Position numbers and translations under genes: made by a program. This document shows positions 1,155 through 40,177 of a DNA stretch of 64,000 nucleotides, piece after piece; position 1 is the stretch's first letter, and each line of letters opens with the position of its first letter. Origin of the DNA: Candidatus Rariloculaceae bacterium. GTDB lineage: Bacteria; Pseudomonadota; Gammaproteobacteria; Steroidobacterales; Rariloculaceae. Below the pieces are notes generated by a model. The model saw only the letters and a program-made list of their open reading frames with translations. It searched no databases and was not told the DNA's origin. The stretch is taken from NCBI GenBank assembly GCA_045561055.1, contig JBJKYL010000013.1, forward strand, positions 64,495 through 128,494, given 5' to 3'.

Positions 1155-1607
1155 TTACAAGAAGAAACAATAGAATCAATTATATGATGGACAGCTTCGG
1201 GAGAGTTGTTCGCGATCTTGATTCAGTATGCCTGATTTCTGATGTGAATCGACGTCTCACGATCATCTAATACTGTTTCCGTGAGACAGACCCATATTGT
1301 CACGAAACGTGGATAGAGTATAGACACTATGGTTTGTGCATATCTAGTGGTTTCAGACCGGAACTCAAAGGGATCTTCGTTTTATCCTCTATATAGATAA
1401 AATCGTTTTTACATTACAGCAGAATTTTCGTATTGGGTAGACAGCCCTAGGCCTTATAGTCAGAGGGTTTTCCGTGTTTTTTGTTCCCCAATAGTTGAAA
1501 GAAAGGAAAGCATGGTGTGTATAAGTGCTTATGTTATTTGGGAAGCTATGGCTATAATTAGTGAGTTGCCAGTAACCCTGTCTGGATCAAAAAATTGGGC
1601 GAATGAG

Positions 1608-2693
1608 ATGACCATCAGAATGCTTTTGTGTCGGCTAGTTAAATCACTTGCGTCTGAAATTGTTTTTTTCGGCATCCTAAGTTTGCCTATCGTGAGTAGT
1701 GCTCATCATGCTATTGCTGGTAACTACGATTCCCAAACCGTCGTTGAGGTAGAAGGGGAAATTACGTCAATCTTGATGCGAAATCCGCATCCACAAATAG
1801 CGATGCGTGTCACGACAGAAAATGGTGAAGTACAGGATTGGCAGATGGCAACTACGGCGCTTAGCAATATGCGTAGGTGGCAGATTGATCCTGATTTTAT
1901 CCAAGTTGGCGATATTATTCGGGCGGCTGGAAATCCTTCTGTTCGAGTAGACTATGGGCTCTATATCAGTAACCTTTTGACCGCGGAAGGTGAAGAAGTC
2001 CTGTTAGGTGGCAACGTTCAGCCGATATGGACTGACCGTACGATCGAAATGTCTACAAGTAGACGTGCAGGGCTTGGCGATACCTCTTCACCGGAGCTGG
2101 GGATCTTTCGGGTCTGGAGTACAGTCGACAACATCCCCATGCTCATGCCGAGAAATATCGGCCGAACACCTGCAGGTCGCGCTAATCTTACCGAAGCCGC
2201 ACTTGTAGCGGTCGATGATTTTGATTGGGTGCGTGACAATCCACTAAAAAACTGTGCTGAAAAAGGTATGCCACTTATCATGGAAGCGCCCTATCCGTTT
2301 GAATTTCTGCAGGACGGTGAGAATATTCTCTGGCATAACGAGGAGTTCGATACCTATCGGACAATTCATATGTCGCCTAATGCTTCCACAGGTGGACAGC
2401 CAAACTCGCTACTCGGCTACTCGTTAGGGTACTGGGAGGACGAATTCACACTGGTCGTTAATACGAGCCACGTTAACTGGGGGCATTTCGACGGTCAGGG
2501 TGTTCCGGCAAGTACACAGTTAGAATCTATCGAGCGTTTTGAGCTAAGTCCACAAGGGGACCGGCTAGATTACAGCATCACAATCTCTGATCCGGTGTAC
2601 CTAATTGAACCAATGACTTTCGGTAAGCATTGGGTCTGGTACCCCGACGCTGAGGTCGGCGTCTACGATTGTTTGGTCGCAGCAGAAGATTAA
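1608..2693 (+). CDS. Exported fused N+C two-module protein (His-His/NPH N-module plus Cys-bracketed C-module), function unknown; paralog L1
   Basis: ORF track gives 1512-2693. I prefer the internal ATG at 1608 (MTIRMLLCRLV...PIVSSA|HHAIAG) because it yields a normal signal peptide. HH lies at 1704-1709, then LMRNPHPQI. Linker GIFRVWS; C-module NCAEKGMP, LGYSLGYWEDEFTLVVNTSH, ISDPVYLIEP, YDC near the end. Confidence 0.8.
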   Translation: MTIRMLLCRLVKSLASEIVFFGILSLPIVSSAHHAIAGNYDSQTVVEVEGEITSILMRNPHPQIAMRVTTENGEVQDWQMATTALSNMRRWQIDPDFIQVGDIIRAAGNPSVRVDYGLYISNLLTAEGEEVLLGGNVQPIWTDRTIEMSTSRRAGLGDTSSPELGIFRVWSTVDNIPMLMPRNIGRTPAGRANLTEAALVAVDDFDWVRDNPLKNCAEKGMPLIMEAPYPFEFLQDGENILWHNEEFDTYRTIHMSPNASTGGQPNSLLGYSLGYWEDEFTLVVNTSHVNWGHFDGQGVPASTQLESIERFELSPQGDRLDYSITISDPVYLIEPMTFGKHWVWYPDAEVGVYDCLVAAED

Positions 2694-7717: not shown

Positions 7718-8728
7718 ATGAAGGTCTTAATAGTTCTGTTTTGTTTTATGTTAGCGCCGACGCTTGGTTTTTCGCACCATTCGCGAGCTGAGTTTTCAGA
7801 TGAAGTCGAAGAGATTACCGGTGAGCTCATTAGTGCGCGTTGGACTAATCCTCATCCAGAGCTGACATTGCTTGTTACTGGGGCGGACGGACTACAGGAG
7901 ACGCTCGTCGTCCAGGTATATGGTGCCGCTAACAATTTACGGCAAGCTGGCGTCACCGACGAGTTGTTCGATATTGGGGATGAGGTGACGATTGCTGGTC
8001 AGCGTTCCTCCCGTCGCGAAGACTTAATCCTCGGCACACATATGCTATTGGTTGATGGTAGACAGGCTATTTTTCATCGCACGTTAGAGCCGTTTTGGTC
8101 GACCGAAATCGTCGGCGGCATGGAAAATTTTCTCGAAGCTGGTTCGGGGCTTGCGGATGGGTTGGCGGAGAATCGAGGATTGTTTCGGATGTGGAGCATT
8201 GTGCAGGGTCCCGGTGGTGATCGTCGTAGTCTGCATATGCTATTGACTGAAGCTGGGATAGCCCGACAGGCTGAGTTCGATGAGGAAAACAGCTGGATTG
8301 GTCGCCTTGAAAAACCTGGCATGCCCGCTTTTATGAACAGTCGCAATAATTTCGAATTCTTTGACGATGGTGACACGATTCGTTACGAGCAAGGCGTGTT
8401 TGATGTCGTACGAACTATCTATCTCCCGGAATCAGAGGGGTTAGAGGACCCTTCCCACTCACCACTAGGTTACTCGACCGGACGGATGGAAGGTAGGACT
8501 TTAATTGTTGAGACAACTCGGCTTAATTGGCCTTACTTTAATCGCGAAGGGATTCCGTTAAGTGAAGATGTGCATATTACTGAGAGATTTACCGTAAGTG
8601 ACGACCAGACAAGTCTCGATTATCACATGACCATTGTCGATCCTGTTAACTTTTCGGAGCCAGTAACTTTGACGCGCCATTGGGTAGCGCTAGAGAACCC
8701 GACGCCTGACGAACGCTACGTTCGATAG
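7718..8728 (+). CDS. Exported fused N+C two-module protein, paralog L2 (the only Cys-free member)
   Basis: MKVLIVLFCFMLAPTLGFS|HHSRAEF, then RWTNPHPEL. Linker GLFRMWS. C-module has EKPGMP (no Cys), LGYSTGRMEGRTLIVETTRLNWPYF, TERFTVSDD, VDPVNFSEP, and a C-terminus ENPTPDERYVR with no Cys. Confidence 0.85.
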   Translation: MKVLIVLFCFMLAPTLGFSHHSRAEFSDEVEEITGELISARWTNPHPELTLLVTGADGLQETLVVQVYGAANNLRQAGVTDELFDIGDEVTIAGQRSSRREDLILGTHMLLVDGRQAIFHRTLEPFWSTEIVGGMENFLEAGSGLADGLAENRGLFRMWSIVQGPGGDRRSLHMLLTEAGIARQAEFDEENSWIGRLEKPGMPAFMNSRNNFEFFDDGDTIRYEQGVFDVVRTIYLPESEGLEDPSHSPLGYSTGRMEGRTLIVETTRLNWPYFNREGIPLSEDVHITERFTVSDDQTSLDYHMTIVDPVNFSEPVTLTRHWVALENPTPDERYVR

Positions 8729-8752: not shown

Positions 8753-9859
8753 TTAAATACCAAATACACGCTCGGCAGTGCGGTGAAATATTTTTGCTCT
8801 ATCGCTACTTGATAGCGGCGCATCCTCGATCATCTTAACTAATGGTTCATTGATGCCATAGGGATAGTCGACAGCGAACATGATTCGGTCTGCGCCAAGT
8901 ACTTCCATGCAGAGATTCAACGTAGGGGGTGAGTTCATGCCACTAGTTGTTATTACAAAGTTGTCGAGAAAGTATTCACTCGGCATGCGTTGTGCGATCC
9001 AGTTAGGCGACTGATAGAAACGTCTTAACGTCGAGTCGAGTCGGTCAAGCCAGAAGGGCACGCCTTCTCCCATATGTCCAAGAATCACGGTGAGATTGGG
9101 GAACTGGTCGAATACGCCACCTAACATCATCCGCACGGCGTGCAGTGAGCTTTCCATATGAAAACCCCAGGTGGCGCCTTCTAACGGATATTCCGTAAAC
9201 GGATCCAACATGCCAGCCGGCGGCGTACGCGGGTGCAAGTAAACAGGTGCGCCAGCGGCTTCCGCACTTTCCAGTATCGGCCAGAATTTTTGGTTATCCA
9301 GAAACTCGCCCTTCGTATGCGAATTAATAACAATGCCGTGAAGGCCGAGGGTCCCAACGGCGCGTTCTAATTCTAGTGCGGCACCCTCGATATCCTGTGG
9401 CGCGAGTGTCGCTAGGGCCGCAAATCGTGTTGGGTGCTTCTCAACGATTTCAGCAGCACGGTCATTGGCAAGGCGGGCAAGCTCAGTTGCTTGCTCTGCG
9501 CCGAAGGCCTGCACTCCAGGTGAGGTTAGCGATAAGACTTGCATATCGATACCAGCCGCATCCATGGCATCCAGCCGCTCGCCCTCCAGATCGGCAAGCC
9601 GATCCCAGATTCCTGCGAAGGGCGTACCGATAATACGGTTATAGAAGGTTGTATAACCCGGTTCATCCGCTGCACCGGTTGCCATTAGTTCGTGTATAGC
9701 CGCGGTTATTTCCGGGATAATAAAGGCTTCTTCGGTTGTGATTCGACGGAATGCTGTTTCACTTTGGGACCATGCTGTGCGCCCCGGCCCGATGAAAGCT
9801 AGGGAAGCGAGTGATGCTTTCTGCAGGAAATCTCGTCTATTGTTATTCAATGGAGCCAC
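8753..9859 (-). CDS. Tat-exported amidohydrolase-2 (ACMSD/LigW-like metal-dependent hydrolase/decarboxylase) family protein
   Basis: Twin-arginine signal MAPLNNNRRDFLQKASLASLAFIG. Then ITTEEAFIIPEI, INSHTKGEFLD, LHPRTPP, ILGHMGEGVPFW and FAVDYPY, typical of Amidohydro_2 TIM barrels. The start lies 1 nt after the upstream YceI stop. Confidence 0.75.
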   Translation of the reverse strand: MAPLNNNRRDFLQKASLASLAFIGPGRTAWSQSETAFRRITTEEAFIIPEITAAIHELMATGAADEPGYTTFYNRIIGTPFAGIWDRLADLEGERLDAMDAAGIDMQVLSLTSPGVQAFGAEQATELARLANDRAAEIVEKHPTRFAALATLAPQDIEGAALELERAVGTLGLHGIVINSHTKGEFLDNQKFWPILESAEAAGAPVYLHPRTPPAGMLDPFTEYPLEGATWGFHMESSLHAVRMMLGGVFDQFPNLTVILGHMGEGVPFWLDRLDSTLRRFYQSPNWIAQRMPSEYFLDNFVITTSGMNSPPTLNLCMEVLGADRIMFAVDYPYGINEPLVKMIEDAPLSSSDRAKIFHRTAERVFGI

Positions 9860-10493: not shown

Positions 10494-11546
10494 CTATCGA
10501 GTAGTGTAAGTTTCGTAGTATTCGTTTCTAGCATTGGTGATTGTGAAGCGACTACCGTCTGCTTCAATCTCCGCTTTGATCCAGTGAGCTTGATCGTTTT
10601 CCACAGTTAGGTTAGCAGTTTTTCGGGCCTCGGTGTTATGGGCGTCGTCCGTTCCTGTCGCGCGATGCATTTGCCAGAAGCCCTCAAGACCGGGGCTTGC
10701 CGCGGCTGTTTCGTAACCGTCGGGATTACCGCCCTTTGTCGCGCCGGTACTGGAGACTGCAGCAATCGGCGCCAGCGACCATACGAACTGTGGCGCAATA
10801 TTGTTGCCATGATGCGGGTAGTCGAGTAGATCGATTGTGCCAACGTTATTGGTTGGGCAGACAAGTGTGTGCAAACCACCCCACGACAGATCGCCGACGT
10901 TGACGTACTGAAAGTCGCCCATCGAGAGATGGAAGCCTAGGCTGTATATGTCCTCGCCATCCGTATCGAGCCCGGTTGGCGCGCAGTCGTCGCCTCTACA
11001 GTACAGGCCATTCGGATCTGTATTTTCGCAAACGGGGTTCGGACCCGGTGATCCGGCCAGAGGTGCGCCAAGGAATTGCTTGTCTCCGGCTATAATTGTT
11101 ACATCGACGCCGCTGAGCGGTAGGATATCTCCCGGCGAGACTGAAGTTCTCTTTCCGGTCTCCGCTGCGGTCAGGTAACGCTCGAAGTTCTCGACTTGGC
11201 GGCCGGAAGTCAGGGTGCTGTCTCCGTAGTCGATAAACTCGATGATCGGCACCATTTCCGCTAGCGCGTAAACCCCGCCCACATGATCGCCGTGAAAATG
11301 AGTCGCGACGAAGTAGTCGAGCTGTCCGACCGCGGCGTCGTCCATGGCGGCTTTGATGCGGTGCGAGTAGATGTCGCCCGGCCGGTCGAATGCGGCGTCT
11401 ACCAGGATCGCCTGGCGCTCCGGCGTCACGATCAGCGTGGCTGCGGCACCGTCGGCGTCGATCCAATAGATATCCATATGTTGTCCATAAACAGCTGATG
11501 TCAAGCAAAGTAGGAGGAGTCCTAACCAGATGTTTACGTTTTTCAT
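10494..11546 (-). CDS. Secreted MBL-fold metallo-hydrolase with intact metal motif
   Basis: Signal peptide MKNVNIWLGLLLLCLTSAVYG. Intact motif VATHFHGDHVGGV (HxHxDH) and a later YPHHGN. Confidence 0.8.
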   Translation of the reverse strand: MKNVNIWLGLLLLCLTSAVYGQHMDIYWIDADGAAATLIVTPERQAILVDAAFDRPGDIYSHRIKAAMDDAAVGQLDYFVATHFHGDHVGGVYALAEMVPIIEFIDYGDSTLTSGRQVENFERYLTAAETGKRTSVSPGDILPLSGVDVTIIAGDKQFLGAPLAGSPGPNPVCENTDPNGLYCRGDDCAPTGLDTDGEDIYSLGFHLSMGDFQYVNVGDLSWGGLHTLVCPTNNVGTIDLLDYPHHGNNIAPQFVWSLAPIAAVSSTGATKGGNPDGYETAAASPGLEGFWQMHRATGTDDAHNTEARKTANLTVENDQAHWIKAEIEADGSRFTITNARNEYYETYTTR

Positions 11547-12656: not shown

Positions 12657-13051
12657 TTTTTTCTCCATCAGAATGGGTATGGATAGCATAATTTTTCTAC
12701 GGATGTGCTTTTTTCAAAGTGATCTTATTATTCTACTAGAGATTGGCTATGTGTATACAATTTGAGAGCCAGTCATTACCAAGGGTTAGTTAGCAGTAAC
12801 GAAAGGTTATGGGCACTGCTCAACTGTGCCTACATCGGTGGAGTTAAATAATCACGTTACACATTGCTATGAAGTTTCTTATTAGATTGGATGTTATTGA
12901 ATGTTGCCTATATCAATCTATTCTTTTATTTTTTTTAATGAGGTAGTAACTGATGCTGGGTAGTATATTATGGTGTTTAATATAATTAAAATAGTAGCGT
13001 CTTAGGTTTAGTCAAAAGCTGCTTAAACTCAACGGGGAGAAATACGCAATA

Positions 13052-13966
13052 ATGCTGAATGTTTATCGATTCGGATTTTATTGGGATCCATGTTCGCTAT
13101 TGGTGGTCGCCGGGTTTTCTGCACTAGTTAGTGCGCCAGTATCTGGACAAGTTGATATTGATAATATGTGGCGTCCTCTGCCTCACAATCAGGACGGTAG
13201 CGGCATGATTGGCGATGCTGCTGGTGTGCCGCTAAATGACGATGGTAAATCGCGAGCAGAGACCTGGTCGCCTGACCAATTCGACATGGCTGAGTGGGTC
13301 TGCCGGCCGCACGCTTGGGACGTTTCTCTGGAAGGTCCGTTAGCTCAAGTACGGTTCTCGTCACAATACGATGCCGCAACGCAAGGGGTTGATGCATACC
13401 TTGGCCACATCTACATGCAGTGGCAGCAACAGACCATCTGGATGGATGGCCGCCCACATCCATCGAAGAACGCGCCACATACATGGAGCGGCTTTACGAC
13501 CGGTGAATGGCAAGGCGATGTCCTGGTGACAACCACCACGCATGTCAAGGAAGATTATGTTCGACGTTGGGGCTTGCCGCGCAGTGATCAAACAACCCTG
13601 AGGACACACTGGCGCAGAATGGGCGACTACCTTCAGGCGACTGTCATCATGTATGACCCGATCTACATGACGGAGCCTTACACCCGTAGCTCGCTGATGT
13701 GGATTAGGGATCCCGGGCTGAACATGGATCCATACCCTTGCGAAGAGGCAACGGAGACTGCGGTACCAAAAGGCACTACGGCGCATTTTTTGCCCGGACA
13801 GTCATATATGCCGGCGTACGATCCCGAGCGATCGGATTCTTTCGCGACGCCGTATGAAGCGAGAAGAGGGGGAGCAGAGTCTATGTACCCGGACTACATC
13901 CGAAAGATGGAAACAATGGCTGCTCCCTCGTTAACTTTAGATCCCGCCGATATTCGAAGCAACTAG
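13052..13966 (+). CDS. Exported C-module-only protein (paralog C1), function unknown
   Basis: Signal peptide ending VSAPVSG|QVD. EWVCRPHAWD, WSGFTTGEWQGDVLVTTTTHVKEDY, MYDPIYMTEP and DPYPCEEA match the C-module pattern of the fused paralogs. First gene of a tight plus-strand operon. Confidence 0.7.
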   Translation: MLNVYRFGFYWDPCSLLVVAGFSALVSAPVSGQVDIDNMWRPLPHNQDGSGMIGDAAGVPLNDDGKSRAETWSPDQFDMAEWVCRPHAWDVSLEGPLAQVRFSSQYDAATQGVDAYLGHIYMQWQQQTIWMDGRPHPSKNAPHTWSGFTTGEWQGDVLVTTTTHVKEDYVRRWGLPRSDQTTLRTHWRRMGDYLQATVIMYDPIYMTEPYTRSSLMWIRDPGLNMDPYPCEEATETAVPKGTTAHFLPGQSYMPAYDPERSDSFATPYEARRGGAESMYPDYIRKMETMAAPSLTLDPADIRSN

Positions 13967-13970
13967 TGAT

Positions 13971-14981
13971 ATGTTGAAAGTTACACGTTTCGGAGTTAGC
14001 CGCCTAACGATCAGTCTATGTCTGGCGAGCTTGCTTGCGTCTGGAGCCCAAGCACAGATATGGCCGACGTCAGTAATTGGGGTGCCTGAAGGGGAGATAG
14101 AGGTTCTCCACGTCAAAGGTAACGTCTACATGTTAGCGGGTTCCGCTGGCAACATTGCGGTGCAGGTCGGTCCTTCAGGTGTGTTAATGGTGGACACCGG
14201 TAGTGCTGCGCTGGCCGATAAGGTATTAGCAGCGGTCGAGACGATCACGAGCGAGCCAATCCGCTACATCGTTAATACCAGTTACCCGGAGGATTATACC
14301 GGTGGCAATGGGACGATTTCGGCGGCTGGACGGTTAGCGACCCCGTTTCGCGGCAGCGGAAGTAGTTCTGTGCAGGGCCAATTCGGTGGGGACAGATCTT
14401 CTGTCATCTCCTACTACACCGTGTTTCATCAGATGGCGGCACCCTCCGATGAGGCGCTAGTCAGAGAGGAAAATTCGTGGCCGGATAATACATTCTCGAC
14501 GCCATTGAAGCGATTGTATTTTAACGACGAGCCAGTGATGATGATGCACCAACCGTCGACGACCGACGGTAACACGATCGTGCTATTCCGAAAATCGGAT
14601 GTCATTGCGGCGGGCGCTGCGCTTAATTTGGAAACCTATCCCGTTATCGATATTGAGGCCGGCGGCAGTATTCAGGCAGTGGTTGTTGCGTTAAATCGGG
14701 TGATTGATATGGCGGTGCCTTCCGAGCGTTCTGAAGGCGGAACGCTGGTGATCCCAGGCCGTGGCAGAATCTCTGATTTTGCAGAGGTGGCACAGCAACG
14801 GGATATGATTTCAATTATCCGCGACCGTGTTCAGAGCATGATTAACGAGGGTATGTCCTTGGCCGATGTGCTCGAAGCAAGACCAACCGAAGGCTATGAT
14901 GTTCGCTATGGAAGTGATAGTGGTCCATGGACAACAGACATGTTTGTCGAAGCAGCCTATTTGAGCCTGGTGGGGCAGTGA
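13971..14981 (+). CDS. Secreted MBL-fold protein with degenerate metal-binding motif (probable pseudoenzyme or binding protein)
   Basis: Signal peptide ...LLASGAQA|QIW. NVYMLAGSAGNIAVQVGPSGVLMVDTGS is the MBL beta-hairpin start. Where HxHxDHxGG is expected the sequence reads IVNTSYPEDYTGGNG, so only the Asp is kept. Starts 4 nt after the upstream stop. Confidence 0.7.
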   Translation: MLKVTRFGVSRLTISLCLASLLASGAQAQIWPTSVIGVPEGEIEVLHVKGNVYMLAGSAGNIAVQVGPSGVLMVDTGSAALADKVLAAVETITSEPIRYIVNTSYPEDYTGGNGTISAAGRLATPFRGSGSSSVQGQFGGDRSSVISYYTVFHQMAAPSDEALVREENSWPDNTFSTPLKRLYFNDEPVMMMHQPSTTDGNTIVLFRKSDVIAAGAALNLETYPVIDIEAGGSIQAVVVALNRVIDMAVPSERSEGGTLVIPGRGRISDFAEVAQQRDMISIIRDRVQSMINEGMSLADVLEARPTEGYDVRYGSDSGPWTTDMFVEAAYLSLVGQ

Positions 14982-15000: not shown

Positions 15001-15399
15001 ATGAAACAATTTAGATTGATGCTACCGTTTGTGATTGGCGGAATTGTTTTTCTGGCAATTACTGGACGCGTACTGGCACACCATTCGTTCTCAGCGACTT
15101 ACCTGCAAGGCAATCAAATCGAAGTCCAAGGCGCAGTTAAGGAACTAGTATGGCGTAATCCGCATTCCTTCTTAAGAATCGATGTTGAGGATGAGAATGG
15201 TGTGTTGCAGACGTGGTCATTGGAATGGACTTCTGCAAATCGGCTGGCCGGTACTGAGATGACCCGAACGACGCTCCGTCCGAAAGACGTCGTTATTGCA
15301 ACTGGAGATCCAGCACGAACCCCGGGAGCGCCACGTCTTTTGCTTCGCCAGTTGAGGCGGCCTAGCGATGGTTGGGAGTGGATTGGTGATATCGACTAG
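15001..15399 (+). CDS. Exported N-module-only protein (His-His/NPH; DUF6152-like by recollection), paralog S1
   Basis: MKQFRLMLPFVIGGIVFLAITGRVLA|HHSFSATYLQGNQIEVQGAVKELVWRNPHSFLRIDVEDENG...WSLEW...; 132 aa. Its end overlaps the next gene. Confidence 0.85.
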   Translation: MKQFRLMLPFVIGGIVFLAITGRVLAHHSFSATYLQGNQIEVQGAVKELVWRNPHSFLRIDVEDENGVLQTWSLEWTSANRLAGTEMTRTTLRPKDVVIATGDPARTPGAPRLLLRQLRRPSDGWEWIGDID

Positions 15400-16189
15400 T
15401 ACTATAACTTCGTTCCGATCTGGGGTTATCCAGGCACTGTTGCTTTGCTTTGCAGGGTGCTCGGCCTTTGCGCAAGACGGAGGCGAGATCACCGGACGTC
15501 AGCGCATGTCGGAGTCGCAAAATTTGACAGGCTACTGGGTCTCAGTTGTGACACAGCATTGGCACTATCGAATGCGAATGCCGCCGAAGGGGGCGACGGC
15601 CAAGATCCCACTTAATGAGACAGGGCGCCGAATTCTTGAGTCTTGGAATCCTGAGGCTGATGCTGCCAATGGCCATGCCTGCCGTGCCTATGGCGCTGGT
15701 AATATCATGCGTATACCAGGCCGCTTTCATATACATTGGGCGGATGACAATACGCTACAGATTGATACCGATTCTGGTACTCAGACGCGTCTTCTACAAT
15801 TCGCTCCGCAAACGTCAGCTTCCGAGGTAGAACCATCGTTACAGGGGCGGTCTGCAGCAGCATGGGTTGGAAGGGAAGGTGCGCCAGAGGGTAGTCGTAA
15901 CGCGGATCAGAACGATCCTAATGCAGTTCGATACTTGGTTGCGTCTACCTCTCGCCTGCTTCCAGGGTATCTGTTGAAAAATGGAGTTCCCTACAGCGGT
16001 AGTACGACTCTTGAGGAATATTTTTACACGTTCACAGAGCCAAATGGTGACGAATGGCTCGTCGTGACAACATTGATCGATGACCCAGAGTTTCTAGCTC
16101 GGCAGCATGTCACCACTAACCAATATAAGAGAGAGCCAGACGACTCTGGGTGGGACCCAACGCCTTGCCAGGTTGATAAGCCTCGTTAG
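15368..16189 (+). CDS. C-module-only protein, probable lipoprotein (paralog C2)
   Basis: ATG at 15368 or in-frame GTG at 15386. Signal with LLLCFAGC lipobox-like end. NLTGYWVS, GHACRAYGAGN, VVTTLIDDPEFLARQ and WDPTPCQ match the C-module in a diverged form. Overlaps the upstream N-module gene by 32 nt (or 14 nt). Confidence 0.65.
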   Translation: MVGSGLVISTSTITSFRSGVIQALLLCFAGCSAFAQDGGEITGRQRMSESQNLTGYWVSVVTQHWHYRMRMPPKGATAKIPLNETGRRILESWNPEADAANGHACRAYGAGNIMRIPGRFHIHWADDNTLQIDTDSGTQTRLLQFAPQTSASEVEPSLQGRSAAAWVGREGAPEGSRNADQNDPNAVRYLVASTSRLLPGYLLKNGVPYSGSTTLEEYFYTFTEPNGDEWLVVTTLIDDPEFLARQHVTTNQYKREPDDSGWDPTPCQVDKPR

Positions 16190-18540: not shown

Positions 18541-19641
18541 TTAGGGTCCAGCGAATGCGGCTTCAAATTGCAAATGGCGTCGTGAAGTCTCTTCGTCACA
18601 GACTTCACTGCTGAACTCATAATCCGGAACTTTCATCGTCATTTTTCTGAGAGTGAAGGGTTCTCTCAAGAATACGGGGTCCTCTATTGTGTACGAGTAA
18701 TCCATACGCAGCCCACCGTCAACTAACTTATAGCGCTCTGTGACTATCATTTGATCACTGGAATTGATCCCTCGGACTATACCCCAGGGCATCGCCCGGA
18801 ATGCATGCGTTTCCACCACGAGGGTATCGTCACTTTCGAAGTGGCCGACCGAATAACCGAGTTCGGTCAGTTCGTAGTCATTAGGCGGCTGCCACGGGCC
18901 ATTCAGATGGATGACCCGAACCTGGCCAGTCGTGTCCTGAGTGATGCGAATTTCACTTTCCGTTCGGGTCCATAGGCGTGGGAACGGCCAATCGATGATT
19001 CTTGGTAACGCCATCGGCACGCAATCGAAATATGGATCAGTATTGGCATCATAATCTTCCGTCAATTCCTGCCCCCTTTGCGTGAGCGCCATGTCTGCCC
19101 ACGGGGTTTCAAAGTTGCTCACTAGCATCCTTCTGAGATCTTCCGCCCGAGGTAAACCGGAATACCTTGTCCATGTCCCCGAGAAGTCGGTGGAAGGTTC
19201 AAGGGTCACAGATTCGGATTCATCTCGCTGATCCGTTGGCAGTACTGCTTGCTGGAAAGAGTAGAGCAACGTCCCATCGTCGCGTCTGACCGAGTCGAGA
19301 AGCGCGAGCCTTATGCCTTGAGTACGACTCGGGTTCGCTACGACGACGAGGTGGTCTCCTAGTTTTAATGCGTCTCTACTCCAGCCGTTTCTCTCCAACC
19401 CAGAAACGGAGTGTGACTCCAGCGTCCATTCTTCAGATTGGCTACCTTGTTCAGTGGAATTTACCACGAGGTAAACATGCGGATTGCGCCAAGTTATTTC
19501 GGTGACTGTGCCCTCAATCTCGATTGTCTCATCCAGTAAGAAACCTGAGCGAGAATGATGCCCCAGAGTCTGGAAACTTTGTAAAAAAGCTAGACAGAAA
19601 AACGAGGAAAGGCCAAGACTAATTATTCTTGATCTATTCAT
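18541..19641 (-). CDS. Exported fused N+C two-module protein, paralog L3
   Basis: ...FLQSFQTLG|HHSRSGF, TWRNPHVYL, GDHLVVVANP. C-module has FSGTWTRYS, YFDCVPMALP, LGYSVGHFESDDTLVVETHAF, TERYKLVDGG, IEDPVFLREP and SEVCDE. Confidence 0.85.
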   Translation of the reverse strand: MNRSRIISLGLSSFFCLAFLQSFQTLGHHSRSGFLLDETIEIEGTVTEITWRNPHVYLVVNSTEQGSQSEEWTLESHSVSGLERNGWSRDALKLGDHLVVVANPSRTQGIRLALLDSVRRDDGTLLYSFQQAVLPTDQRDESESVTLEPSTDFSGTWTRYSGLPRAEDLRRMLVSNFETPWADMALTQRGQELTEDYDANTDPYFDCVPMALPRIIDWPFPRLWTRTESEIRITQDTTGQVRVIHLNGPWQPPNDYELTELGYSVGHFESDDTLVVETHAFRAMPWGIVRGINSSDQMIVTERYKLVDGGLRMDYSYTIEDPVFLREPFTLRKMTMKVPDYEFSSEVCDEETSRRHLQFEAAFAGP

Positions 19642-19749: not shown

Positions 19750-20817
19750 TTAAAGTTCCCATTCGGGCACACAATCGAATTCGTATAGGTTTACTCCAGG
19801 TATCCATCTACGGGGCATCTCTAGCGTCACGGGTTCTGCCAGCATGACCGGGTCTGTCATTGTAAATGTATAGTCTAACCACTCCCCATTTTCCCGTGTC
19901 GAGAATCGTTCAAGATAAGTCATTTGATCGGATTGTGGCATTGAACCCTCTAAGGCAATGGGATGATCGATATGACTTGTGTTCACAATGAGATCATCTC
20001 CCTCCCAGTGGCCTAGCGAGTAGCCAACATTCGAATAGGTCGGTTCAGGAGCGGTCTCAGCGTTCATGTAGACGTAGCGATGCGTGTTGTACTGTTCAAT
20101 CCAAATATGGACTATATCGTCCTGATTTTCGATTAGGATTCTAGATCGTTCGAACATTGCCGTCGGCATGCCAGTCTGGCACTGCAGTTCGGTAGCATCG
20201 TTACCCCCCGGATCTAGCGTGGCGGCGATCGCATGGCCCTGGTCTGAAAGATATGGCTGATATGCAGAGAGCGGTGGTTGCGAGGCTTGCCGTATACTCC
20301 ATAGACGGAATATGCCGTCTGCATTCGCTCTGTCCTCTGCGATTCTAGCTTCGGTAGCCGCCATCTCGCTAGGTTCCCAGAGTTGACCCCATCGTGCCGT
20401 CGTTACGCCAGCCATCCCGCCTATATGTTCTAAACCATTGGGCAATAGAAGGTTAGTTAGTCCTAAGGCTGATGGATCACGTCTGGAGACAAAGCCCGCC
20501 GCCCTAACAAAATCTCCAACCTGCACAAATTCTTCCTGGGTAACACCAGCTCGAAGGAATGTGGTGGGGCTTGGGCTCGCTTCGAGCTCCCAAACTTTTC
20601 CGTCCACATCCTCCATACGATAACGTATATGTGGAGCACGCCAGAAAACATCGGTGATTGTGCCTTCGACCTCAACTGGATCGTCTGGATTAGGTGCGAT
20701 ATATAGCGCTTGATTAGTGACGCCACCGTGATGGGCATTAACGACGGCTGCAAGGAATACGCCGAATACACCAACGATGGACCAAATAACGGATCTGAAG
20801 CTTTTTAGAATCGACAT
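19750..20817 (-). CDS. Exported fused N+C two-module protein, paralog L4
   Basis: ...FLAAVVNA|HHGGVTNQ, FWRAPHIRY, GDFVRAAG. C-module has GIFRLWSI, ELQCQTGMP, VGYSLGHWEGDDLIVNTSHIDH, LERFSTRENG, MTDPVMLAEP and YEFDC. Confidence 0.85.
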   Translation of the reverse strand: MSILKSFRSVIWSIVGVFGVFLAAVVNAHHGGVTNQALYIAPNPDDPVEVEGTITDVFWRAPHIRYRMEDVDGKVWELEASPSPTTFLRAGVTQEEFVQVGDFVRAAGFVSRRDPSALGLTNLLLPNGLEHIGGMAGVTTARWGQLWEPSEMAATEARIAEDRANADGIFRLWSIRQASQPPLSAYQPYLSDQGHAIAATLDPGGNDATELQCQTGMPTAMFERSRILIENQDDIVHIWIEQYNTHRYVYMNAETAPEPTYSNVGYSLGHWEGDDLIVNTSHIDHPIALEGSMPQSDQMTYLERFSTRENGEWLDYTFTMTDPVMLAEPVTLEMPRRWIPGVNLYEFDCVPEWEL

Positions 20818-20971: not shown

Positions 20972-22714
20972 TCATCGGCTAAACATATACACAGCGCCTG
21001 AGTCGGGTATCGAGTTGTCATCCTGATCACCATCTACTCCAACGGCATTACTATCCTCTAAATATGCACCTACGACAAAAACGGAACCATCCTTACTAAT
21101 GCTAACCGAGCTTCCAAATTCATCAAACATTTCTGTATTTGAGCCTTTAACGTAGGCTTCTTGCAGCCAGGTTTGACCTTCTCGGGTGAATACATACACG
21201 GCACCCGCCTCTTGCGCAGAGTCGTTATCCTGTAATCCATTAATTCCTTGCGCGGAGCTATCCTCATATTGAGCGCCTACCACTAGCACATTTCCATCAC
21301 CACTGACGGCAAGCCGGGAGCCAAAGACATCGCCTGATCCAGTATTAGAAGCCTTGATATAAGCCTGCTGTGACCAGCTACCATCATTATTTTCAACGAA
21401 CGCATACACTGCGCCCGTCGTTGGTCGGATGTCGTCTTGGTAGTCGGGGCCGGGAATATTGTTGATTCCGGTCGTTAGCCCATCCTCATCTTGGGCGGTT
21501 CCGATGACTGTTTTTCCGTCATCACTGATTGCTACTGCGACACCCAAAGAATCACCCCGCTCAGCGTTAGAAGCCTTCAGATAACCGATCTGATCCCAGG
21601 TATCACCATCAAAGTCAAATACATAAATAGCGCCGGTACCGCGGACTAAACCATCTTGATACTCGTTAGTAGAAGCAGGCGAACCGTCCTCGTCGTAGCC
21701 ACCAATTGCGACACGCCGGCCATCACCGGTGATGGCTAGCGAATAACCGAATAATGCATCAACCTCGGGATTCGATGGCTTTAGATAGGCTGTTTGAGTC
21801 CAAGTTTCTCCCTCACGTTCAAATACGTAGGCAGCACCAGCCGATCGCTTGGAGTTGTTGAGTTGGTCGCCGTTCATGCCGGTAGCATTGCTATCTTCCG
21901 CTGTGGCAGAGACGATCAGTTTATTACCGTCATCACTCAGTGCCAGGGCAGCGCCGAACTGATCACCGTCGTCGAATTCTTCACCATAGGAGTTTTCATA
22001 GGAATATTCGCCAGCATTTATATTTCCGAAATTTTCAGTTGCCAACGGCGGCGCGTCTGCGGGAACTTCTGTGGCCACATGCCCAGTATTTGACGCTTTG
22101 ATATAGGCCTCCTGAGTCCAGGTCGTTCCGTTGCGGACAAAAACATAGGCAGCACCAGACTGACCGATTGAATCGTCGTTCTGATCTCCGTTGATACCGG
22201 TCGCTGCACTAGACTCGAAATGAGCTGATACGGCTAGTGTGTTACCGTCAGCGCTCAGAGAGGTAGCAAATCCGAAGTTATCGGTTACGCCAGGGTTAGA
22301 CGCTTTAATATAAGCTTGCCGAACCCAGCTACCGCTTTCATTAGCAAATATATAGACCGCGCCAGAACCGAACAAGGATTCGTCGTCTTGGTCGCCGTTA
22401 ATACCTGATGAGCTACTACTTTCGAATGGTGCGCCAACGGCGAGTGTCATACCGTCGTCACTCAGCGACACTGCATTATCACCAATAGCTGAGCCGCCCG
22501 AACCGAAATTAGCGCCGAACGAAGGGTTAGAGGCTTTAAAATATGCAATCTGAGTGATACCGCTGCTTTGAATTGCGGACGGTGCGGCTTGCTGTTCAAC
22601 CTCTAGAGGATCCGTTAAGTTCTGTGCGGCAGAGTCAGTGGGCTCGTCTCTCGGCCCTGTACAAGCGGCGACGAACGCATAGCTGATTAGCAGCGCATAT
22701 ATTTTGTTATTCAT
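20972..22714 (-). CDS. Lipoprotein with seven FG-GAP/integrin-alpha-like repeats (predicted 7-bladed beta-propeller)
   Basis: Lipobox LLISYAFVAAC. Seven units of the form [AG]Y[IFLV]K[APG]SN...FG..[LV]..S.DG..[LV].VGA..E.S...GING[DL]Q.[DN].S....GA[VA]Y[VM]F: AYFKASN, AYIKASN x3, AYLKPSN, GYLKASN, AYVKGSN. The start overlaps the upstream N-module stop as ATGA. Confidence 0.75.
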   Translation of the reverse strand: MNNKIYALLISYAFVAACTGPRDEPTDSAAQNLTDPLEVEQQAAPSAIQSSGITQIAYFKASNPSFGANFGSGGSAIGDNAVSLSDDGMTLAVGAPFESSSSSGINGDQDDESLFGSGAVYIFANESGSWVRQAYIKASNPGVTDNFGFATSLSADGNTLAVSAHFESSAATGINGDQNDDSIGQSGAAYVFVRNGTTWTQEAYIKASNTGHVATEVPADAPPLATENFGNINAGEYSYENSYGEEFDDGDQFGAALALSDDGNKLIVSATAEDSNATGMNGDQLNNSKRSAGAAYVFEREGETWTQTAYLKPSNPEVDALFGYSLAITGDGRRVAIGGYDEDGSPASTNEYQDGLVRGTGAIYVFDFDGDTWDQIGYLKASNAERGDSLGVAVAISDDGKTVIGTAQDEDGLTTGINNIPGPDYQDDIRPTTGAVYAFVENNDGSWSQQAYIKASNTGSGDVFGSRLAVSGDGNVLVVGAQYEDSSAQGINGLQDNDSAQEAGAVYVFTREGQTWLQEAYVKGSNTEMFDEFGSSVSISKDGSVFVVGAYLEDSNAVGVDGDQDDNSIPDSGAVYMFSR

Positions 22715-23133
22715 CGATTTGGGGGTTCCTCAGTAAATATGACCTCACCTGTGTCCGTGAGGATAACCTGCGCTCCGTTGGCACCACGCGAAAGTCTGAT
22801 ACTAGGGGCTCCATTCTTCATTGCTAAGCCGCGAACTGTCACTCTATCACCAGGTTTCAGGATATTTTTGTGCCAGCCTTCCGTGGCCATTAGCGGTGGG
22901 TTATTGAATTCGGCCATCCAGCGCACCGGATTGCCAGCTTCATCTTCTACTTCAACAGCGAGTAGCGCGTGGGGATTGATAAACATTAACTGAATGACTG
23001 TGCCGGAAATTTCTGATAGCTGATCTTCGTATCGACCAGCTGTGCCGTGATGCGCATATGCAACTGAGCTTACCAATACACTCACAGTCAGTACGTGAAG
23101 TGCGGCATGAAAGCGTCTATTTACTTTGTTCAT
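22711..23133 (-). CDS. Exported N-module-only protein (His-His/NPH), paralog S2
   Basis: MNKVNRRFHAALHVLTVSVLVSSVAYA|HHGTAGRYEDQLSEISGTVIQLMFINPHALLAVEVEDEAGNPVRW...GDRVTVRG; 140 aa. The stop overlaps the propeller start by 4 nt. Confidence 0.85.
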   Translation of the reverse strand: MNKVNRRFHAALHVLTVSVLVSSVAYAHHGTAGRYEDQLSEISGTVIQLMFINPHALLAVEVEDEAGNPVRWMAEFNNPPLMATEGWHKNILKPGDRVTVRGLAMKNGAPSIRLSRGANGAQVILTDTGEVIFTEEPPNR

Positions 23134-31701: not shown

Positions 31702-32715
31702 ATGACTCGTTTGGGCTTATTTTTAATGGTAGTTTTCGGTTCGACCGCAGCATTAGCCCATCATGCATTCAGTGCGTTCTATGACACTAATAATGTTGGT
31801 GATATCGAGGGCGAGCTGATTGAGACGTTCTGGATCAACCCACACGCGGGTTTCAGAATTCGTACCGACGACGGTGAAATTTGGAATATCGAGACAGCGC
31901 CCGTCAATCGCTTACAGCGGTTAGGACTTGCTGAAGCTATAGTAGTGGGCGATCGGGTTACTTTTTCTGGTGCCTTTTCGCGGCTGGGACGAAATGAAGT
32001 GCTCGCTACTAACGCGATTTTGGCGGATGGTCGGGAGGTTCTGCTAGATCCCGGTTTTGCCAATCGACTCGGACTTGCGGACCGCGTAACTTCTGGTGGA
32101 AGTGATGGAGCAGATCCCGTTGCGGTTGCTGGGGGTGCTGAGCCAGAAGGTATCTACCGTGTTTGGTCGCGCGCGCGCGGGCCGAACGATCAGGACCCTG
32201 AACGCACGTTTACATCAGCCGCTCTGGCAGCCAGAGCGGCTTGGGATCCGGTCGTTGATGATCCGGCACTTCGCTGTATTGCTCCGGGGATGCCGGTTGT
32301 GATGGATACGCCTTTCCCGATGGCGTTCGAAGAAGGAGATGGTCGAATTATTCTTCGTATAGAGCAATGGGACAGTGTCCGTAGTATTCACATCGATAGC
32401 GACCTGGACCCGCAAGCGCAACCTGACTCATTAATGGGGTATTCAGTCGGGCATTGGGAAGGACGGACGCTTGTTGTAGAGACGTCGAATATCAGCTGGC
32501 CTTATGTCGATGAGTTCGGTACGCCTAAAAGTGATGAGTTTACGATTGTTGAGCGCTTCACTTTTAGCGAGGACAGTCGTGGAATGACCTGGGAGGCGAC
32601 GTCCAATGATCCATTGACCTATGAGGGTTCTGCCTTTCTTGGTAGCGCTAGTTATGAATGGGTGCCTGGCGAAGAAATCAAGCCTTATAACTGTTCGCTT
32701 GGCGCTGCAGGCTAA
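31702..32715 (+). CDS. Exported fused N+C two-module protein, paralog L5
   Basis: MTRLGLFLMVVFGSTAALA|HHAFSAFYD, FWINPHAGF, GDRVTFSG. C-module has GIYRVWS, ALRCIAPGMP, MGYSVGHWEGRTLVVETSNISWPYV, VERFTFSED, SNDPLTYEG and PYNCS. Starts 31 nt after the broken sulfatase. Confidence 0.85.
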   Translation: MTRLGLFLMVVFGSTAALAHHAFSAFYDTNNVGDIEGELIETFWINPHAGFRIRTDDGEIWNIETAPVNRLQRLGLAEAIVVGDRVTFSGAFSRLGRNEVLATNAILADGREVLLDPGFANRLGLADRVTSGGSDGADPVAVAGGAEPEGIYRVWSRARGPNDQDPERTFTSAALAARAAWDPVVDDPALRCIAPGMPVVMDTPFPMAFEEGDGRIILRIEQWDSVRSIHIDSDLDPQAQPDSLMGYSVGHWEGRTLVVETSNISWPYVDEFGTPKSDEFTIVERFTFSEDSRGMTWEATSNDPLTYEGSAFLGSASYEWVPGEEIKPYNCSLGAAG

Positions 32716-39367: not shown

Positions 39368-39613
39368 ATCATAATCAAGTTTGACACGATTCCCTCACTA
39401 CAATCAGAGAGCGTGATTCAAAATAGTAATGAGTAAACGATAAAATATTATCACTTGCGTTAAAATCGCATCGGCTCTGCAAAATTGTGTCCATCTACAA
39501 TATCATCAAGACGGTACTACTTCCTGCTTGCCGTTATAATAAGTGATCACATTTGTGAATATGCTTCCGAATTTAGTGAGTAAATATTAATGAATCTTCG
39601 TGCAGAGTGGAAT

Positions 39614-40177
39614 ATGAAAAATAGGTTTCTACTCGCAGTTATTGCCAGTGGACTCGTTCTGTTTTCTGATTTAGCAATATCGCACCATTCTTTTGCGCAG
39701 AGACTTGCAGGCGAAATAGAGTCGCTTGAATTTTATGACGGTACGATTGATCTTTATAGGATGCTCAATCCTCACAGCGCGCTGTTTCTGACGCTCGAAA
39801 ATGAGGACGGGAGTAACGCCGAATGGCTTATAGAACTCAGTTCTGCGTCGACGCTAGGCCGCGAAGGCTGGACGCCAGAATTACTCAGTTCGGGAGATCG
39901 AGTCTCCGTCGCGATCTTAGCGTCACGGACACCGAATCGTGGGCGACTTCGCGCTATGCTGGTGCATGGAACGAGTGATACAGAATCATCGAGACTTATC
40001 GTCGCATACGGTATCCGGGGAGACACGCCGATCATGCGACGACTGCGAGATAGGCTTCCGACGTGCGTGGGTATGGAAGGAAAGCTTAATAGAGGCGAGT
40101 GTTTTGTTGTGTCGCATGCCGTTTTACAAGATTTAGAAAATGAGTTTCCAGGGCAGATGGGTTATGTGATGCCATGA
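39614..40177 (+). CDS. Exported N-module-only protein (His-His/NPH) with extra C-terminal tail, paralog S4
   Basis: ORF track starts at 39590. ATG 39614 gives MKNRFLLAVIASGLVLFSDLAIS|HHSFAQRL, then RMLNPHSALFLTLENEDG, WLIELS and GDRVSVAI. The stop overlaps the next start as ATGA (40174-40177). Confidence 0.75.
   Translation: MKNRFLLAVIASGLVLFSDLAISHHSFAQRLAGEIESLEFYDGTIDLYRMLNPHSALFLTLENEDGSNAEWLIELSSASTLGREGWTPELLSSGDRVSVAILASRTPNRGRLRAMLVHGTSDTESSRLIVAYGIRGDTPIMRRLRDRLPTCVGMEGKLNRGECFVVSHAVLQDLENEFPGQMGYVMP

What the first reader, a model, noticed from the sequence alone, without database searches (positions are those of the whole stretch)
13971..14981. MBL-fold protein whose HxHxDH motif reads SYPEDY, embedded in the N/C-module operon
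The secreted protein has the typical MBL opening strands (NVYMLAGSAGNIAVQVGPSGVLMVDTGS), but where the metal motif belongs it reads NTSYPEDYTGGN. Both histidines of HxH and the final His are replaced. The other MBL protein in the window (10494-11546) has a canonical HFHGDHVGG.

The degenerate copy is tightly packed between a C-module gene (4-nt gap) and an N-module gene (19-nt gap). A catalytically dead MBL scaffold retained in an operon suggests a binding, chaperone or regulatory role in the system.
Basis: seen in the sequence. Interest (0 to 1): 0.55.

Follow-up and report, generated by a model that had tools for sequence, protein, structure and literature searches.

The report
Metal-site-less MBL protein in conserved cassette
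This exported protein has the metallo-beta-lactamase fold but has lost six of its seven metal-binding residues, yet it is conserved as one gene of a widespread, uncharacterised four-gene periplasmic cassette, so it is probably a non-catalytic partner subunit rather than decaying junk.

Summary
ORF 13971-14981 (+) encodes a Sec-exported MBL-fold protein. Where a 45%-identical homologue has all seven canonical ligands (H116, H118, D120, H121, H196, D221, H263), this protein has S104, P106, D108, Y109, T197, A216 and R264. Only D120 survives. The mature protein has three His and no Cys, so no intact site can lie elsewhere.

This is not decay. The S[P/A]DYTAR pattern is shared by 22 homologues at 69-96% identity, from uncultured Ca. 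Rariloculaceae. dN/dS is 0.08-0.17, like the neighbouring genes.

The protein belongs to a large family known only from MAGs and metagenomes. Deep branches of that family keep the canonical site. Most close relatives keep only the mononuclear ligand set used by chlorothalonil dehalogenase. At least three clades independently replaced H121 with Tyr and D221 with Ala or Gly.

The gene sits in a conserved cassette: C-module, MBL-like, DUF6152, C'-module. That order occurs in 47 of 67 genome loci. The C-module and the MBL-like domain are naturally fused in 22 representative clusters. Relatives with a canonical site live in the same cassette.

Best reading: a metal-free scaffold or ligand-binding subunit of a periplasmic complex. 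Loss of catalysis is inferred, not shown.

The parts
12690..13051 (.). AT-rich intergenic region between the divergent NHL-repeat gene (ends 12689, - strand) and the C-module gene. Presumed promoter region of the cassette.
   Evidence: Sequence read. The consensus promoter scan did not exceed shuffled controls, so this assignment is inferred from gene layout only.
13052..13966 (+). C-module gene (304 aa, exported, no Pfam family). It is the conserved upstream partner of the MBL-like gene and is fused to it in many relatives.
   Evidence: no Pfam hit; 1028 homologues; every source name shown is 'hypothetical protein'; mean column identity 70%. N-terminal halves of the ~600-aa representatives match it, E down to 1e-123. 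dN/dS 0.08-0.22.
13971..14981 (+). MBL-like gene (336 aa), the finding itself. MBL fold with only one of the seven canonical metal ligands retained.
13971..14054 (+). Signal peptide (aa 1-28; AQA|Q cleavage site read from the sequence).
   Evidence: Translation. Basic N-terminus, hydrophobic core and AXA motif, by inspection only.
14274..14309 (+). Degenerate motif 2, NTSYPEDYTGGN. S104 = H116, P106 = H118, D108 = D120 (kept), Y109 = H121.
14559..14561 (+). T197, at the position of ligand H196.
14616..14618 (+). A216, at the position of ligand D221.
14760..14762 (+). R264, at the position of ligand H263.
   Evidence: Chd PGHG aligned to PGRG.
15001..15399 (+). N-module gene (DUF6152, 132 aa, exported). 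The predicted mature N-terminus is His-His-Ser.
   Evidence: PF19649, 69.7 bits; sequence ..VLA|HHSFSATY. AHH[SA] in 45 of 56 cassette copies.
15368..16189 (+). C'-module gene (273 aa, exported), a distant paralogue of the C-module. It overlaps the DUF6152 gene by 32 nt.
   Evidence: gene calls; 24% identity to the C-module, E 1e-5; conserved position in the cassette.

Best explanation
The gene encodes a periplasmic MBL-fold protein that no longer has a canonical metal centre. It persists as a structural or ligand-binding subunit of a four-protein periplasmic module: C-module, MBL-like, DUF6152 N-module and C'-module.

Shown:
- Six of the seven canonical ligands are replaced.
- The clade is conserved and under purifying selection.
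- The cassette is conserved across Gammaproteobacteria and Acidobacteriota.
- The C-module and the MBL-like domain occur as one polypeptide in many relatives.
- Canonical-site relatives occupy the same cassette.

Inferred:
- The ancestor was a Zn hydrolase working together with the C-module.
- In this lineage the hydrolytic step became dispensable while the MBL body stayed necessary for the complex.
- The former metal pocket was re-filled and charge-balanced. Tyr replaced H121, a small residue replaced the D221 carboxylate, and Arg replaced H263. That leaves a polar, anion-friendly pocket (Y105, Y109, R264, R266, D108) that could still bind a ligand.
- The frequent adjacency of TonB-dependent receptor genes suggests the module handles a compound imported across the outer membrane.
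For: Ligand loss:
- Searches give the ligand map S/P/D/Y/T/A/R and show only 3 His and 0 Cys in the mature protein.
- Chd's catalytic Zn ligands D116/H117/N216/H257 (PMC12784990) align to query D108/Y109/A216/R264. Three of the four ligands of even the mononuclear site are gone.

Conservation:
- 22 homologues at 69-96% identity share S[P/A]DYTA[R/H].
- dN/dS is 0.088, 0.171, 0.082 and 0.090 against four orthologues. This matches the neighbours, including the canonical MBL at 0.07-0.18.

Partnership:
- Cassette order C-M-N-C' occurs in 47 of 67 genome loci. The permuted order M-N-C'-C occurs in 7. It is also seen.
- Genes are 4 nt apart, or overlap by 4 nt in relatives.
- 22 of 150 representatives at 50% identity are ~600-aa C::MBL fusions.

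Ancestry:
- Canonical-site members share the cassette. L081 has N-C-M-C'-C' with NTHVHNDH. L079 has C-M. Fusions P0207 and P0224 have all seven ligands.

Non-random remodelling:
- H121Y together with D221A/G arose in at least three clades. Each is sister to an H..D..H clade with the same residues at positions 116/118.

Context:
- TonB-receptor-type barrels make up 24 of 97 immediate neighbours.
Against: - No measurement of metal content, activity or complex formation exists.
- D108, the nearly invariant H193, and D199 lie in or next to the old site. They could form a new, weaker metal site. I could not measure distances because model coordinates are not exposed.
- Loops flanking the former ligands (TGGN, TDGN, PGxGR) stay highly conserved. 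This fits retained pocket function, which could be catalytic rather than merely binding.
- The partner folds are unknown. The C-module model is poor (pLDDT 45).
- Fusions show functional linkage but do not prove that the separate proteins form a stable complex.
Confidence: 0.55

Rival explanations
1. It is still an enzyme. The pocket was re-engineered for metal-independent catalysis, with Arg, Tyr and Asp replacing the Lewis-acid metal. Alternatively it binds a metal through a new ligand set such as D108, H193 and D199.
For: - Strong purifying selection.
- High conservation of the loops around the former ligands, and of H193, T198, D199, R266 and D269.
- The same Tyr121 plus small-221 solution arose convergently at least three times. 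That looks like a defined alternative state rather than random loss.
- In most relatives Arg sits at position 118, inside the former Zn1 site.
Against: - I am not aware of any characterised MBL-fold enzyme that works without metal ligands (own knowledge).
- The flanking-loop motifs are equally conserved in canonical-site relatives, so they may be fold determinants.
- The residues at the substituted positions differ between degenerate clades: SPDYTAR, TFEYNGH, SGEYNAH, IWEYNPH. A single new catalytic constellation is therefore not conserved.
Confidence: 0.27
2. Lineage-specific decay: a gene on its way to becoming a pseudogene after loss of function.
For: Six of seven catalytic ligands are lost. 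Pfam scores below threshold.
Against: - The reading frame is intact.
- The identical protein is found on 6 independent contigs.
- dN/dS is 0.08-0.17 out to 70% identity, with dS above 2.
- The pattern is conserved in 22 homologues.
- The cassette position is conserved.
Confidence: 0.02
3. Alignment artefact: intact His ligands exist but sit elsewhere in the sequence.
For: The Pfam match covers only residues 59-121.
Against: - The mature protein has only three His and no Cys.
- A 45%-identity gap-free alignment to a canonical-site homologue places all seven ligands opposite S, P, D, Y, T, A and R.
- Three PDB alignments agree.
Confidence: 0.01
4. The MBL-like protein is an inactive paralogue that pairs with the window's canonical MBL (10494-11546), in the manner of CPSF100/CPSF73.
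For: Both are exported and lie in adjacent divergent operons. That adjacency is kept in close relatives L001 and L009-L011.
Against: - The two are only remotely related: 14.5 bits against the family HMM.
- The canonical MBL is absent next to the cassette in L005, L007 and most of the 67 loci.
- The conserved, and sometimes fused, partner is the C-module.
Confidence: 0.05

Closest known systems
Chlorothalonil hydrolytic dehalogenase Chd (PDB 6UXU)
   Same: - Second-best PDB sequence match, with a Foldseek hit at E 2.8e-12, TMq 0.65.
- Shares the N-T-S-Y-x-x-D-x-x-x-G-N motif context and a C-terminal helical extension.
- Chd has Ser at position 116, as the query does. Its single catalytic Zn uses only D116/H117/N216/H257 (PMC12784990). 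That is the ligand set most members of this subfamily retain.
   Different: - The query has Y, A and R at three of those four positions.
- Identity is about 17%.
- Chd is not known to be encoded with C-module or DUF6152 partners.
Burkholderia cenocepacia MBL-superfamily protein (PDB 8D2Z, function unpublished)
   Same: Best structural and sequence match among solved structures. Foldseek E 1.6e-15, TMq 0.65, 320 aligned columns. Profile E 1.8e-8.
   Different: - 8D2Z keeps His at positions 116, 118 and 196 (SHYHAV..GHTKGD).
- Identity is 18%.
- No paper was found for it.
Subclass B2 metallo-beta-lactamases (CphA, Sfh-I)
   Same: The motif context aligns directly: NTNYHTDRAGGN against NTSYPEDYTGGN. 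B2 enzymes already show that position 116 can be a non-His residue in an active mono-zinc enzyme.
   Different: B2 enzymes keep H118, D120, H196, C221 and H263. The query keeps only D120. NCBIfam bla_subclass_B2 scores 18.6 bits against a cut-off of 240.
Non-catalytic MBL subunits of eukaryotic RNA-processing complexes (CPSF100, INTS9, N-terminal half of tRNase ZL/ELAC2)
   Same: Same logic: an MBL fold with degenerate metal ligands is kept under selection as an obligate partner within a complex (PMC7980224 and PMC3161902 found; details from own knowledge).
   Different: - Those are cytosolic or nuclear beta-CASP or tRNase Z nucleases paired with an active MBL paralogue.
- Here the protein is bacterial and periplasmic, with no beta-CASP domain.
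- The conserved partner is a non-MBL protein, the C-module.
SoxH-related 'quinoprotein relay system zinc metallohydrolase' 1/2 (TIGR04558/TIGR04559)
   Same: Best NCBIfam hits: E 5e-12 and 1e-10 over residues 57-125. These are also exported MBLs of unknown role encoded in periplasmic redox clusters. PQQ and cytochrome c genes occur near some cassette copies.
   Different: Scores of 45.7 and 41 bits lie far below the cut-offs of 280 and 300. Only the N-terminal third aligns.

Membership tests
Metallo-beta-lactamase superfamily (fold and homology) | alpha-beta/beta-alpha sandwich fold | tested here: met
   AF2 model pLDDT 78.6. Foldseek prob 1.00 to 8D2Z, Chd, alkylsulfatases, BcII, VIM and NDM.
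Metallo-beta-lactamase superfamily (fold and homology) | Pfam PF00753 Lactamase_B at or above gathering score (22.7 bits) | tested here: not met
   17.0 bits, residues 59-121 only. However, homologues at 45-60% identity pass: P0135 55.5 bits, P0022 49.3 bits. Homology to the family is therefore secure by transitivity.
Metallo-beta-lactamase superfamily (catalytic members) | Motif 2, H116-x-H118-x-D120-H121 | tested here: not met
   S104-Y-P106-E-D108-Y109.
Metallo-beta-lactamase superfamily (catalytic members) | Ligands H196, D/C221 and H263 | tested here: not met
   T197, A216 and R264.
Metallo-beta-lactamase superfamily (catalytic members) | Bound Zn, Fe or Mn and hydrolytic activity | not testable with these tools
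   Needs ICP-MS and enzyme assays.
Chd-type mononuclear-Zn MBL hydrolases | Zn ligands D116, H117, N216 and H257 (Chd numbering; PMC12784990) | tested here: not met
   The query has D108, Y109, A216 and R264 at the aligned positions. Most of the subfamility's other members (pattern x-x-[DE]-H-x-D-H) do meet it.
Subclass B2 metallo-beta-lactamase | NCBIfam NF033087 at or above 240 bits; N116, H118, D120, C221, H263 | tested here: not met
   18.6 bits. Only D120 is present.
SoxH-related quinoprotein relay MBL (TIGR04558/TIGR04559) | Score at or above 300 / 280 bits | tested here: not met
   41 and 45.7 bits.
Pseudo-MBL partner subunits (CPSF100/INTS9 type) | MBL fold with degenerate ligands, under selection | tested here: met
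Pseudo-MBL partner subunits (CPSF100/INTS9 type) | beta-CASP insertion and pairing with an active MBL paralogue | tested here: not met
   No beta-CASP Pfam hit. The only other MBL in the window is remote (14.5 bits) and is not conserved next to the cassette.
C-M-N-C' periplasmic cassette (defined here; no published name found) | MBL-like gene immediately downstream of, or fused to, a C-module gene | tested here: met
   Window 13052-13966 then 13971-14981. 47+ of 67 genome loci; 22 fusion clusters.
C-M-N-C' periplasmic cassette (defined here; no published name found) | DUF6152 gene with AHH[SA] mature N-terminus, followed by a C'-module gene | tested here: met
   Window 15001-15399 and 15368-16189.
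C-M-N-C' periplasmic cassette (defined here; no published name found) | Physical complex of the four proteins | not testable with these tools
   Inferred only from fusions, translational coupling and synteny.

The most novel reading that the evidence does not exclude
The C-module / MBL-like / DUF6152 / C'-module cassette is an undescribed periplasmic machine, often linked to a TonB-dependent receptor, in uncultured Rariloculaceae and Vicinamibacterales.

Its essential chemistry would sit in the partners: the invariant His-His N-terminus of DUF6152 (a His-brace-like metal site), or the His/Cys/Glu-rich C-module, or both. The MBL subunit began as a Zn hydrolase. It was then converted repeatedly and convergently (H121Y plus D221A/G, and here also H263R) into a metal-free ligand-presenting or scaffold subunit. 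This would be the first bacterial periplasmic example of an MBL pseudoenzyme, with a traceable stepwise path from 7 ligands to 4 to 1.
Probability: 0.25. Interest if true: 0.8.

Novelty: new variant of a known kind. Interest (0 to 1): 0.55.

Why it matters
Non-catalytic MBL-fold subunits are well known only in eukaryotic RNA-processing complexes. Here a large bacterial family shows every stage from a full di-metal site, to a Chd-like mononuclear set, to almost no ligands, all inside one conserved gene cassette. The family has roughly 340 clusters at 50% identity with E <= 1e-30 and thousands of sequences.

That makes it a natural series for asking how and why a metalloenzyme becomes a pseudoenzyme. 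The repeated Tyr121/small-221 solution gives a testable structural hypothesis.

It also flags a four-protein periplasmic system built from two families with no Pfam model and one DUF. No paper mentioning DUF6152 was found. The system is multi-copy in abundant uncultured sediment and soil bacteria, and its function is entirely unknown.

Tried and rejected
- The first ligand table used hmmalign --trim, which shifted the query numbering. The output was meaningless and was discarded. It was redone correctly.
- Promoter and terminator counts were no better than shuffles, so there is no operon boundary evidence.
- The AF2 model of the C-module is poor (pLDDT 45). Foldseek gave only weak FABP/calycin-like barrel matches (TMq about 0.3). 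I treat this as a hint, not a result.
- The C-module and DUF6152 have no significant PDB or Pfam relatives.
- Literature searches for 8D2Z and DUF6152 found nothing relevant. The single hit for 'quinoprotein relay system' was not followed up.
- The 'FAGC' in the window's C'-module looked like a lipobox, but only 3 of 60 homologues have one. I rejected it; these are ordinary signal peptides.
- The neighbour scan failed on size and was repeated with fewer sequences.
- The locus of canonical-site P0135 returned no DNA, so its two downstream genes could not be typed.
- The idea that the canonical MBL at 10494-11546 is the active partner was rejected.

Full report
**1. The observation**

The ORF listing finds an ATG-started ORF at 13971-14981 (+) of 336 aa. 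The C-module ORF upstream ends at 13966, so the gap is 4 nt (TGAT). The DUF6152 ORF downstream starts at 15001, so the gap is 19 nt and contains GGGAG. Nucleotides 14274-14309 translate to NTSYPEDYTGGN. The N-terminus (MLKVTRFGVSRLTISLCLASLLASGAQA|Q) is a typical Sec signal by inspection. The other MBL of the window (10494-11546, -) reads THFHGDHVGG.

**2. Register**

Pfam Lactamase_B matches only residues 59-121 at 17.0 bits, below the gathering score of 22.7. NCBIfam gives weak partial hits, best to the SoxH-related quinoprotein-relay MBLs at 45.7 bits against a cut-off of 280.

Four independent alignments fix the register:
- phmmer and profile searches of the PDB align NTSYPEDYTGGN to NTSYHGDHSYGN of chlorothalonil dehalogenase (6UXU).
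- The same searches align it to NTNYHTDRAGGN of the B2 enzyme CphA.
- They also align it to the motif of 8D2Z.
- BLASTP against P0135, a family member at 45% identity (E 2e-78), is gap-free through the motifs.

P0135 passes Pfam at 55.5 bits. It reads THAHPDHTGGN, PAGHTDGD, SAGD and PGHGR where the query reads TSYPEDYTGGN, PS-TTDGN, AAGA and PGRGR.

In standard MBL numbering the map is:

| Canonical ligand | Query residue |
|---|---|
| H116 | S104 |
| H118 | P106 |
| D120 | D108 (kept) |
| H121 | Y109 |
| H196 | T197 |
| D221 | A216 |
| H263 | R264 |

The mature protein has only three His (47, 153, 193) and no Cys. An AF2 model built on 38 homologues (pLDDT 78.6) has the MBL fold. Foldseek gives E 1.6e-15 to 8D2Z and about 1e-12 to alkylsulfatases, Chd, BcII, VIM and NDM.

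**3. Not decay**

- The exact protein occurs on six contigs, including a MAG assembly, GCA_964512575.1.
- Close homologues come from Ca. Rariloculaceae, an uncultured gammaproteobacterial family.
- 22 homologues at 69-96% identity share S[P/A]DYTA[R/H] at the seven positions.
- Nei-Gojobori dN/dS against four orthologues is 0.088, 0.171, 0.082 and 0.090, with dS up to about 2.4.
- That matches the three cassette neighbours (0.04-0.22) and the canonical MBL (0.07-0.18).

The protein is under ordinary purifying selection.

**4. The family and the path of ligand loss**

The word-indexed search returned 3176 hits. The exhaustive search of 50%-identity representatives gave 6734 at E <= 1e-3 and 340 at E <= 1e-30. 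I aligned 270 members to a family HMM and read the seven positions:
- 14 representatives have the full canonical set.
- About 25 have S-x-D-x-D-H with H196, D221 and H263.
- Most of the closer subfamily (50% identity or more to the query) has lost H116, H118 and H196, but keeps [D/E]120, H121, D221 and H263.

That retained set is exactly the single catalytic Zn site of Chd: D116, H117, N216 and H257 in Chd numbering (PMC12784990; alignment). Loss of HxH alone would therefore not imply an inactive protein.

The query clade has gone further and lost three of these four. In an NJ tree canonical-site members are scattered through the deep branches. The most degenerate states arise separately:
- The query clade (S[PA]DYTAR) is sister to TADHNDH sequences.
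- The TFEYNGH clade is sister to TFDHNDH sequences.
- The [ST]GEYNAH clade is sister to TGDHNDH sequences.

Across all members, H121 goes with D221 and H263 in 136 cases. Of the 51 members with Tyr121, 43 have Ala or Gly at 221.

The same double change occurring at least three times argues for a defined alternative state of the pocket. My inference is that Tyr fills the metal cavity and the now uncompensated carboxylate at 221 is removed. In the query clade Arg at 263 then adds back a positive charge next to D108.

**5. Genomic context**

In the window the order is C-module (13052-13966), MBL-like, DUF6152 N-module (15001-15399) and C'-module (15368-16189). The C'-module is a 24%-identical paralogue of the C-module.

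The same four genes in the same order flank homologues at 86%, 75%, 71% and 60% identity. A scan of one genome per GTDB species found 67 loci. All are MAGs, from Ca. Rariloculaceae and other Gammaproteobacteria and from Acidobacteriota, mainly Vicinamibacterales. There are often several copies per genome.

I built HMMs for the four modules and typed the loci:

| Gene order | Loci (of 67) |
|---|---|
| C-M-N-C' | 47 |
| M-N-C'-C | 7 |
| Lacking the N-module | 5 |
| Mostly cut by contig ends | remainder |

None of the 67 has H116 or H196. The scan patterns were derived from this subfamily, so that is partly by construction.

Among the 150 representatives, 22 are proteins of about 600 aa. Their N-terminal half is a C-module (BLASTP E down to 1e-123) and their C-terminal half is the MBL-like domain. 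Two of these fusions, P0207 and P0224, have all seven ligands.

Canonical-site relatives also sit in the cassette:
- L081 carries N, C, M (NTHVHNDH..AHTDGD..TGD..PGHGR), C', C'.
- L079 carries C then M.
- L082, a five-ligand member, carries M, C', C and a nearby N.

So the partnership with the C-module, and with DUF6152, predates the loss of the metal site and outlived it.

The commonest immediate neighbours of the cassette are TonB-dependent-receptor-type outer-membrane barrels, at 24 of 97 neighbours. c-type cytochromes come next. In the window itself the neighbours are other exported enzymes: sulfatases, an amidohydrolase, YceI, an NHL-repeat protein, an esterase and a 3-keto-disaccharide-hydrolase-like protein.

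**6. Mechanism**

The best-supported reading (confidence about 0.55) is a metal-free MBL-fold subunit kept for its body and pocket, not its chemistry. It would be made with, and bound to, the C-module within a four-protein periplasmic module.

Shown are ligand loss, selection, synteny, fusion and the ancestry of the cassette. Inferred are complex formation, absence of catalysis, and a ligand-binding role for the remodelled pocket (Y105, Y109, R264, R266, D108).

The main rival (about 0.27) is that the pocket still catalyses something, without a canonical metal centre or with a new one (D108, H193, D199):
- For it: the loops around the former ligands remain highly conserved.
- Against it: the same loops are equally conserved in canonical members, and the substituted residues differ between degenerate clades.

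Pseudogene decay and misalignment are refuted (sections 2 and 3). An active/inactive pairing with the window's other MBL is unlikely. It scores only 14.5 bits against the family HMM and is not conserved next to the cassette.

**7. Comparison with known systems**

By fold and sequence the nearest solved proteins are 8D2Z (function unpublished) and Chd. By motif context it also resembles the B2 beta-lactamases. The protein fails the defining ligand tests of every catalytic MBL group I considered. It also falls far below the NCBIfam cut-offs.

By logic it resembles CPSF100, INTS9 and the N-terminal half of tRNase ZL, which are degenerate MBL domains kept as partner subunits. But it has no beta-CASP domain, it is periplasmic, and its partner is not an MBL. 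I found no paper mentioning DUF6152. The C-module and C'-module have no Pfam family.

**8. Verdict**

The finding is real. The pseudoenzyme reading is well supported at the sequence level and unproven biochemically. It is a new variant of a known kind, a non-catalytic MBL-fold subunit, set in an uncharacterised and widespread cassette. Interest 0.55.

The most novel reading still open (probability about 0.25) is that the cassette is a new periplasmic machine, often TonB-linked, whose chemistry lies in the His-His N-terminus of DUF6152 or in the C-module. On that reading the MBL was repeatedly converted from a Zn hydrolase into a scaffold.

Noticed in passing
window 15001-15399 (+), and the N-module genes of L012-L078: The DUF6152 protein of the cassette has a signal peptide followed directly by His-His-Ser/Ala (..A|HHSF[ST]A[TA]Y) in 45 of 56 cassette copies read. 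A conserved WRNPH motif lies about 25 residues later. An N-terminal histidine pair this conserved suggests a His-brace-like metal site. No paper mentions DUF6152.
   Followed up: partly
window 1512-2693, 7718-8728, 18541-19641, 19750-20817, 22711-23133, 31702-32715, 39590-40177, 45497-46291, 46426-46851: At least nine further paralogues of the N-module (DUF6152) and the C-module lie in the same 64 kb. They occur fused (N+C, 336-393 aa) or split. This is a large local expansion of an uncharacterised exported protein family.
   Followed up: partly
window 13052-13966 (+): The C-module is more conserved than the MBL-like protein: 70% mean column identity between Gammaproteobacteria and Acidobacteriota. 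Invariant residues include H87, H119, H143, H164, H245, C84, C230, E231 and E232. It may be the catalytic or ligand-binding heart of the cassette. It has no Pfam family, the AF2 model is poor (pLDDT 45), and there is only a weak FABP/calycin-like barrel resemblance.
   Followed up: partly
family alignment (P0001-P0270); L024, L025, L036, L037, L075: H121->Tyr together with D221->Ala/Gly has arisen in at least three separate clades. Each is sister to an H..D..H clade with the same residues at positions 116/118. This is convergent remodelling of the former metal pocket.
   Followed up: partly
L014/L005 (two TonB receptors directly upstream); L021-L070 generally: TonB-dependent-receptor-type outer-membrane barrels (OMP_b-brl_4 / CarboxypepD_reg / TonB_dep_Rec) are the commonest immediate neighbour of the cassette, at 24 of 97 neighbours scanned. 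c-type cytochromes are next.
   Followed up: partly
L081 906-4881; L079 24-2038; L082 6001-9606: Relatives with a fully canonical HxHxDH/H196/D221/H263 site occur in the same cassette, together with the C-module, DUF6152 and C'-modules. The cassette therefore predates the loss of the metal site.
   Followed up: yes
window 8753-9859 (-): The Amidohydro_2 (ACMSD-type) protein starts MAPLNNNRRDFLQKASLASLAFIG. This is a twin-arginine-like export signal, which would put this usually cytosolic enzyme type in the periplasm.
   Followed up: no
P0077 (homologue, 376 aa): Its N-terminal extension (MAPYPCEEATETVVPRG..FETPYEARMGGADTMFPDY) is the C-terminal end of a C-module. This is either a partial fusion or a miscalled start that reads through from the upstream gene.
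   Followed up: no
window 15368-15399: The DUF6152 gene and the C'-module gene overlap by 32 nt. The N+C' pair looks like a split version of the fused N+C proteins found elsewhere in the window.
   Followed up: partly
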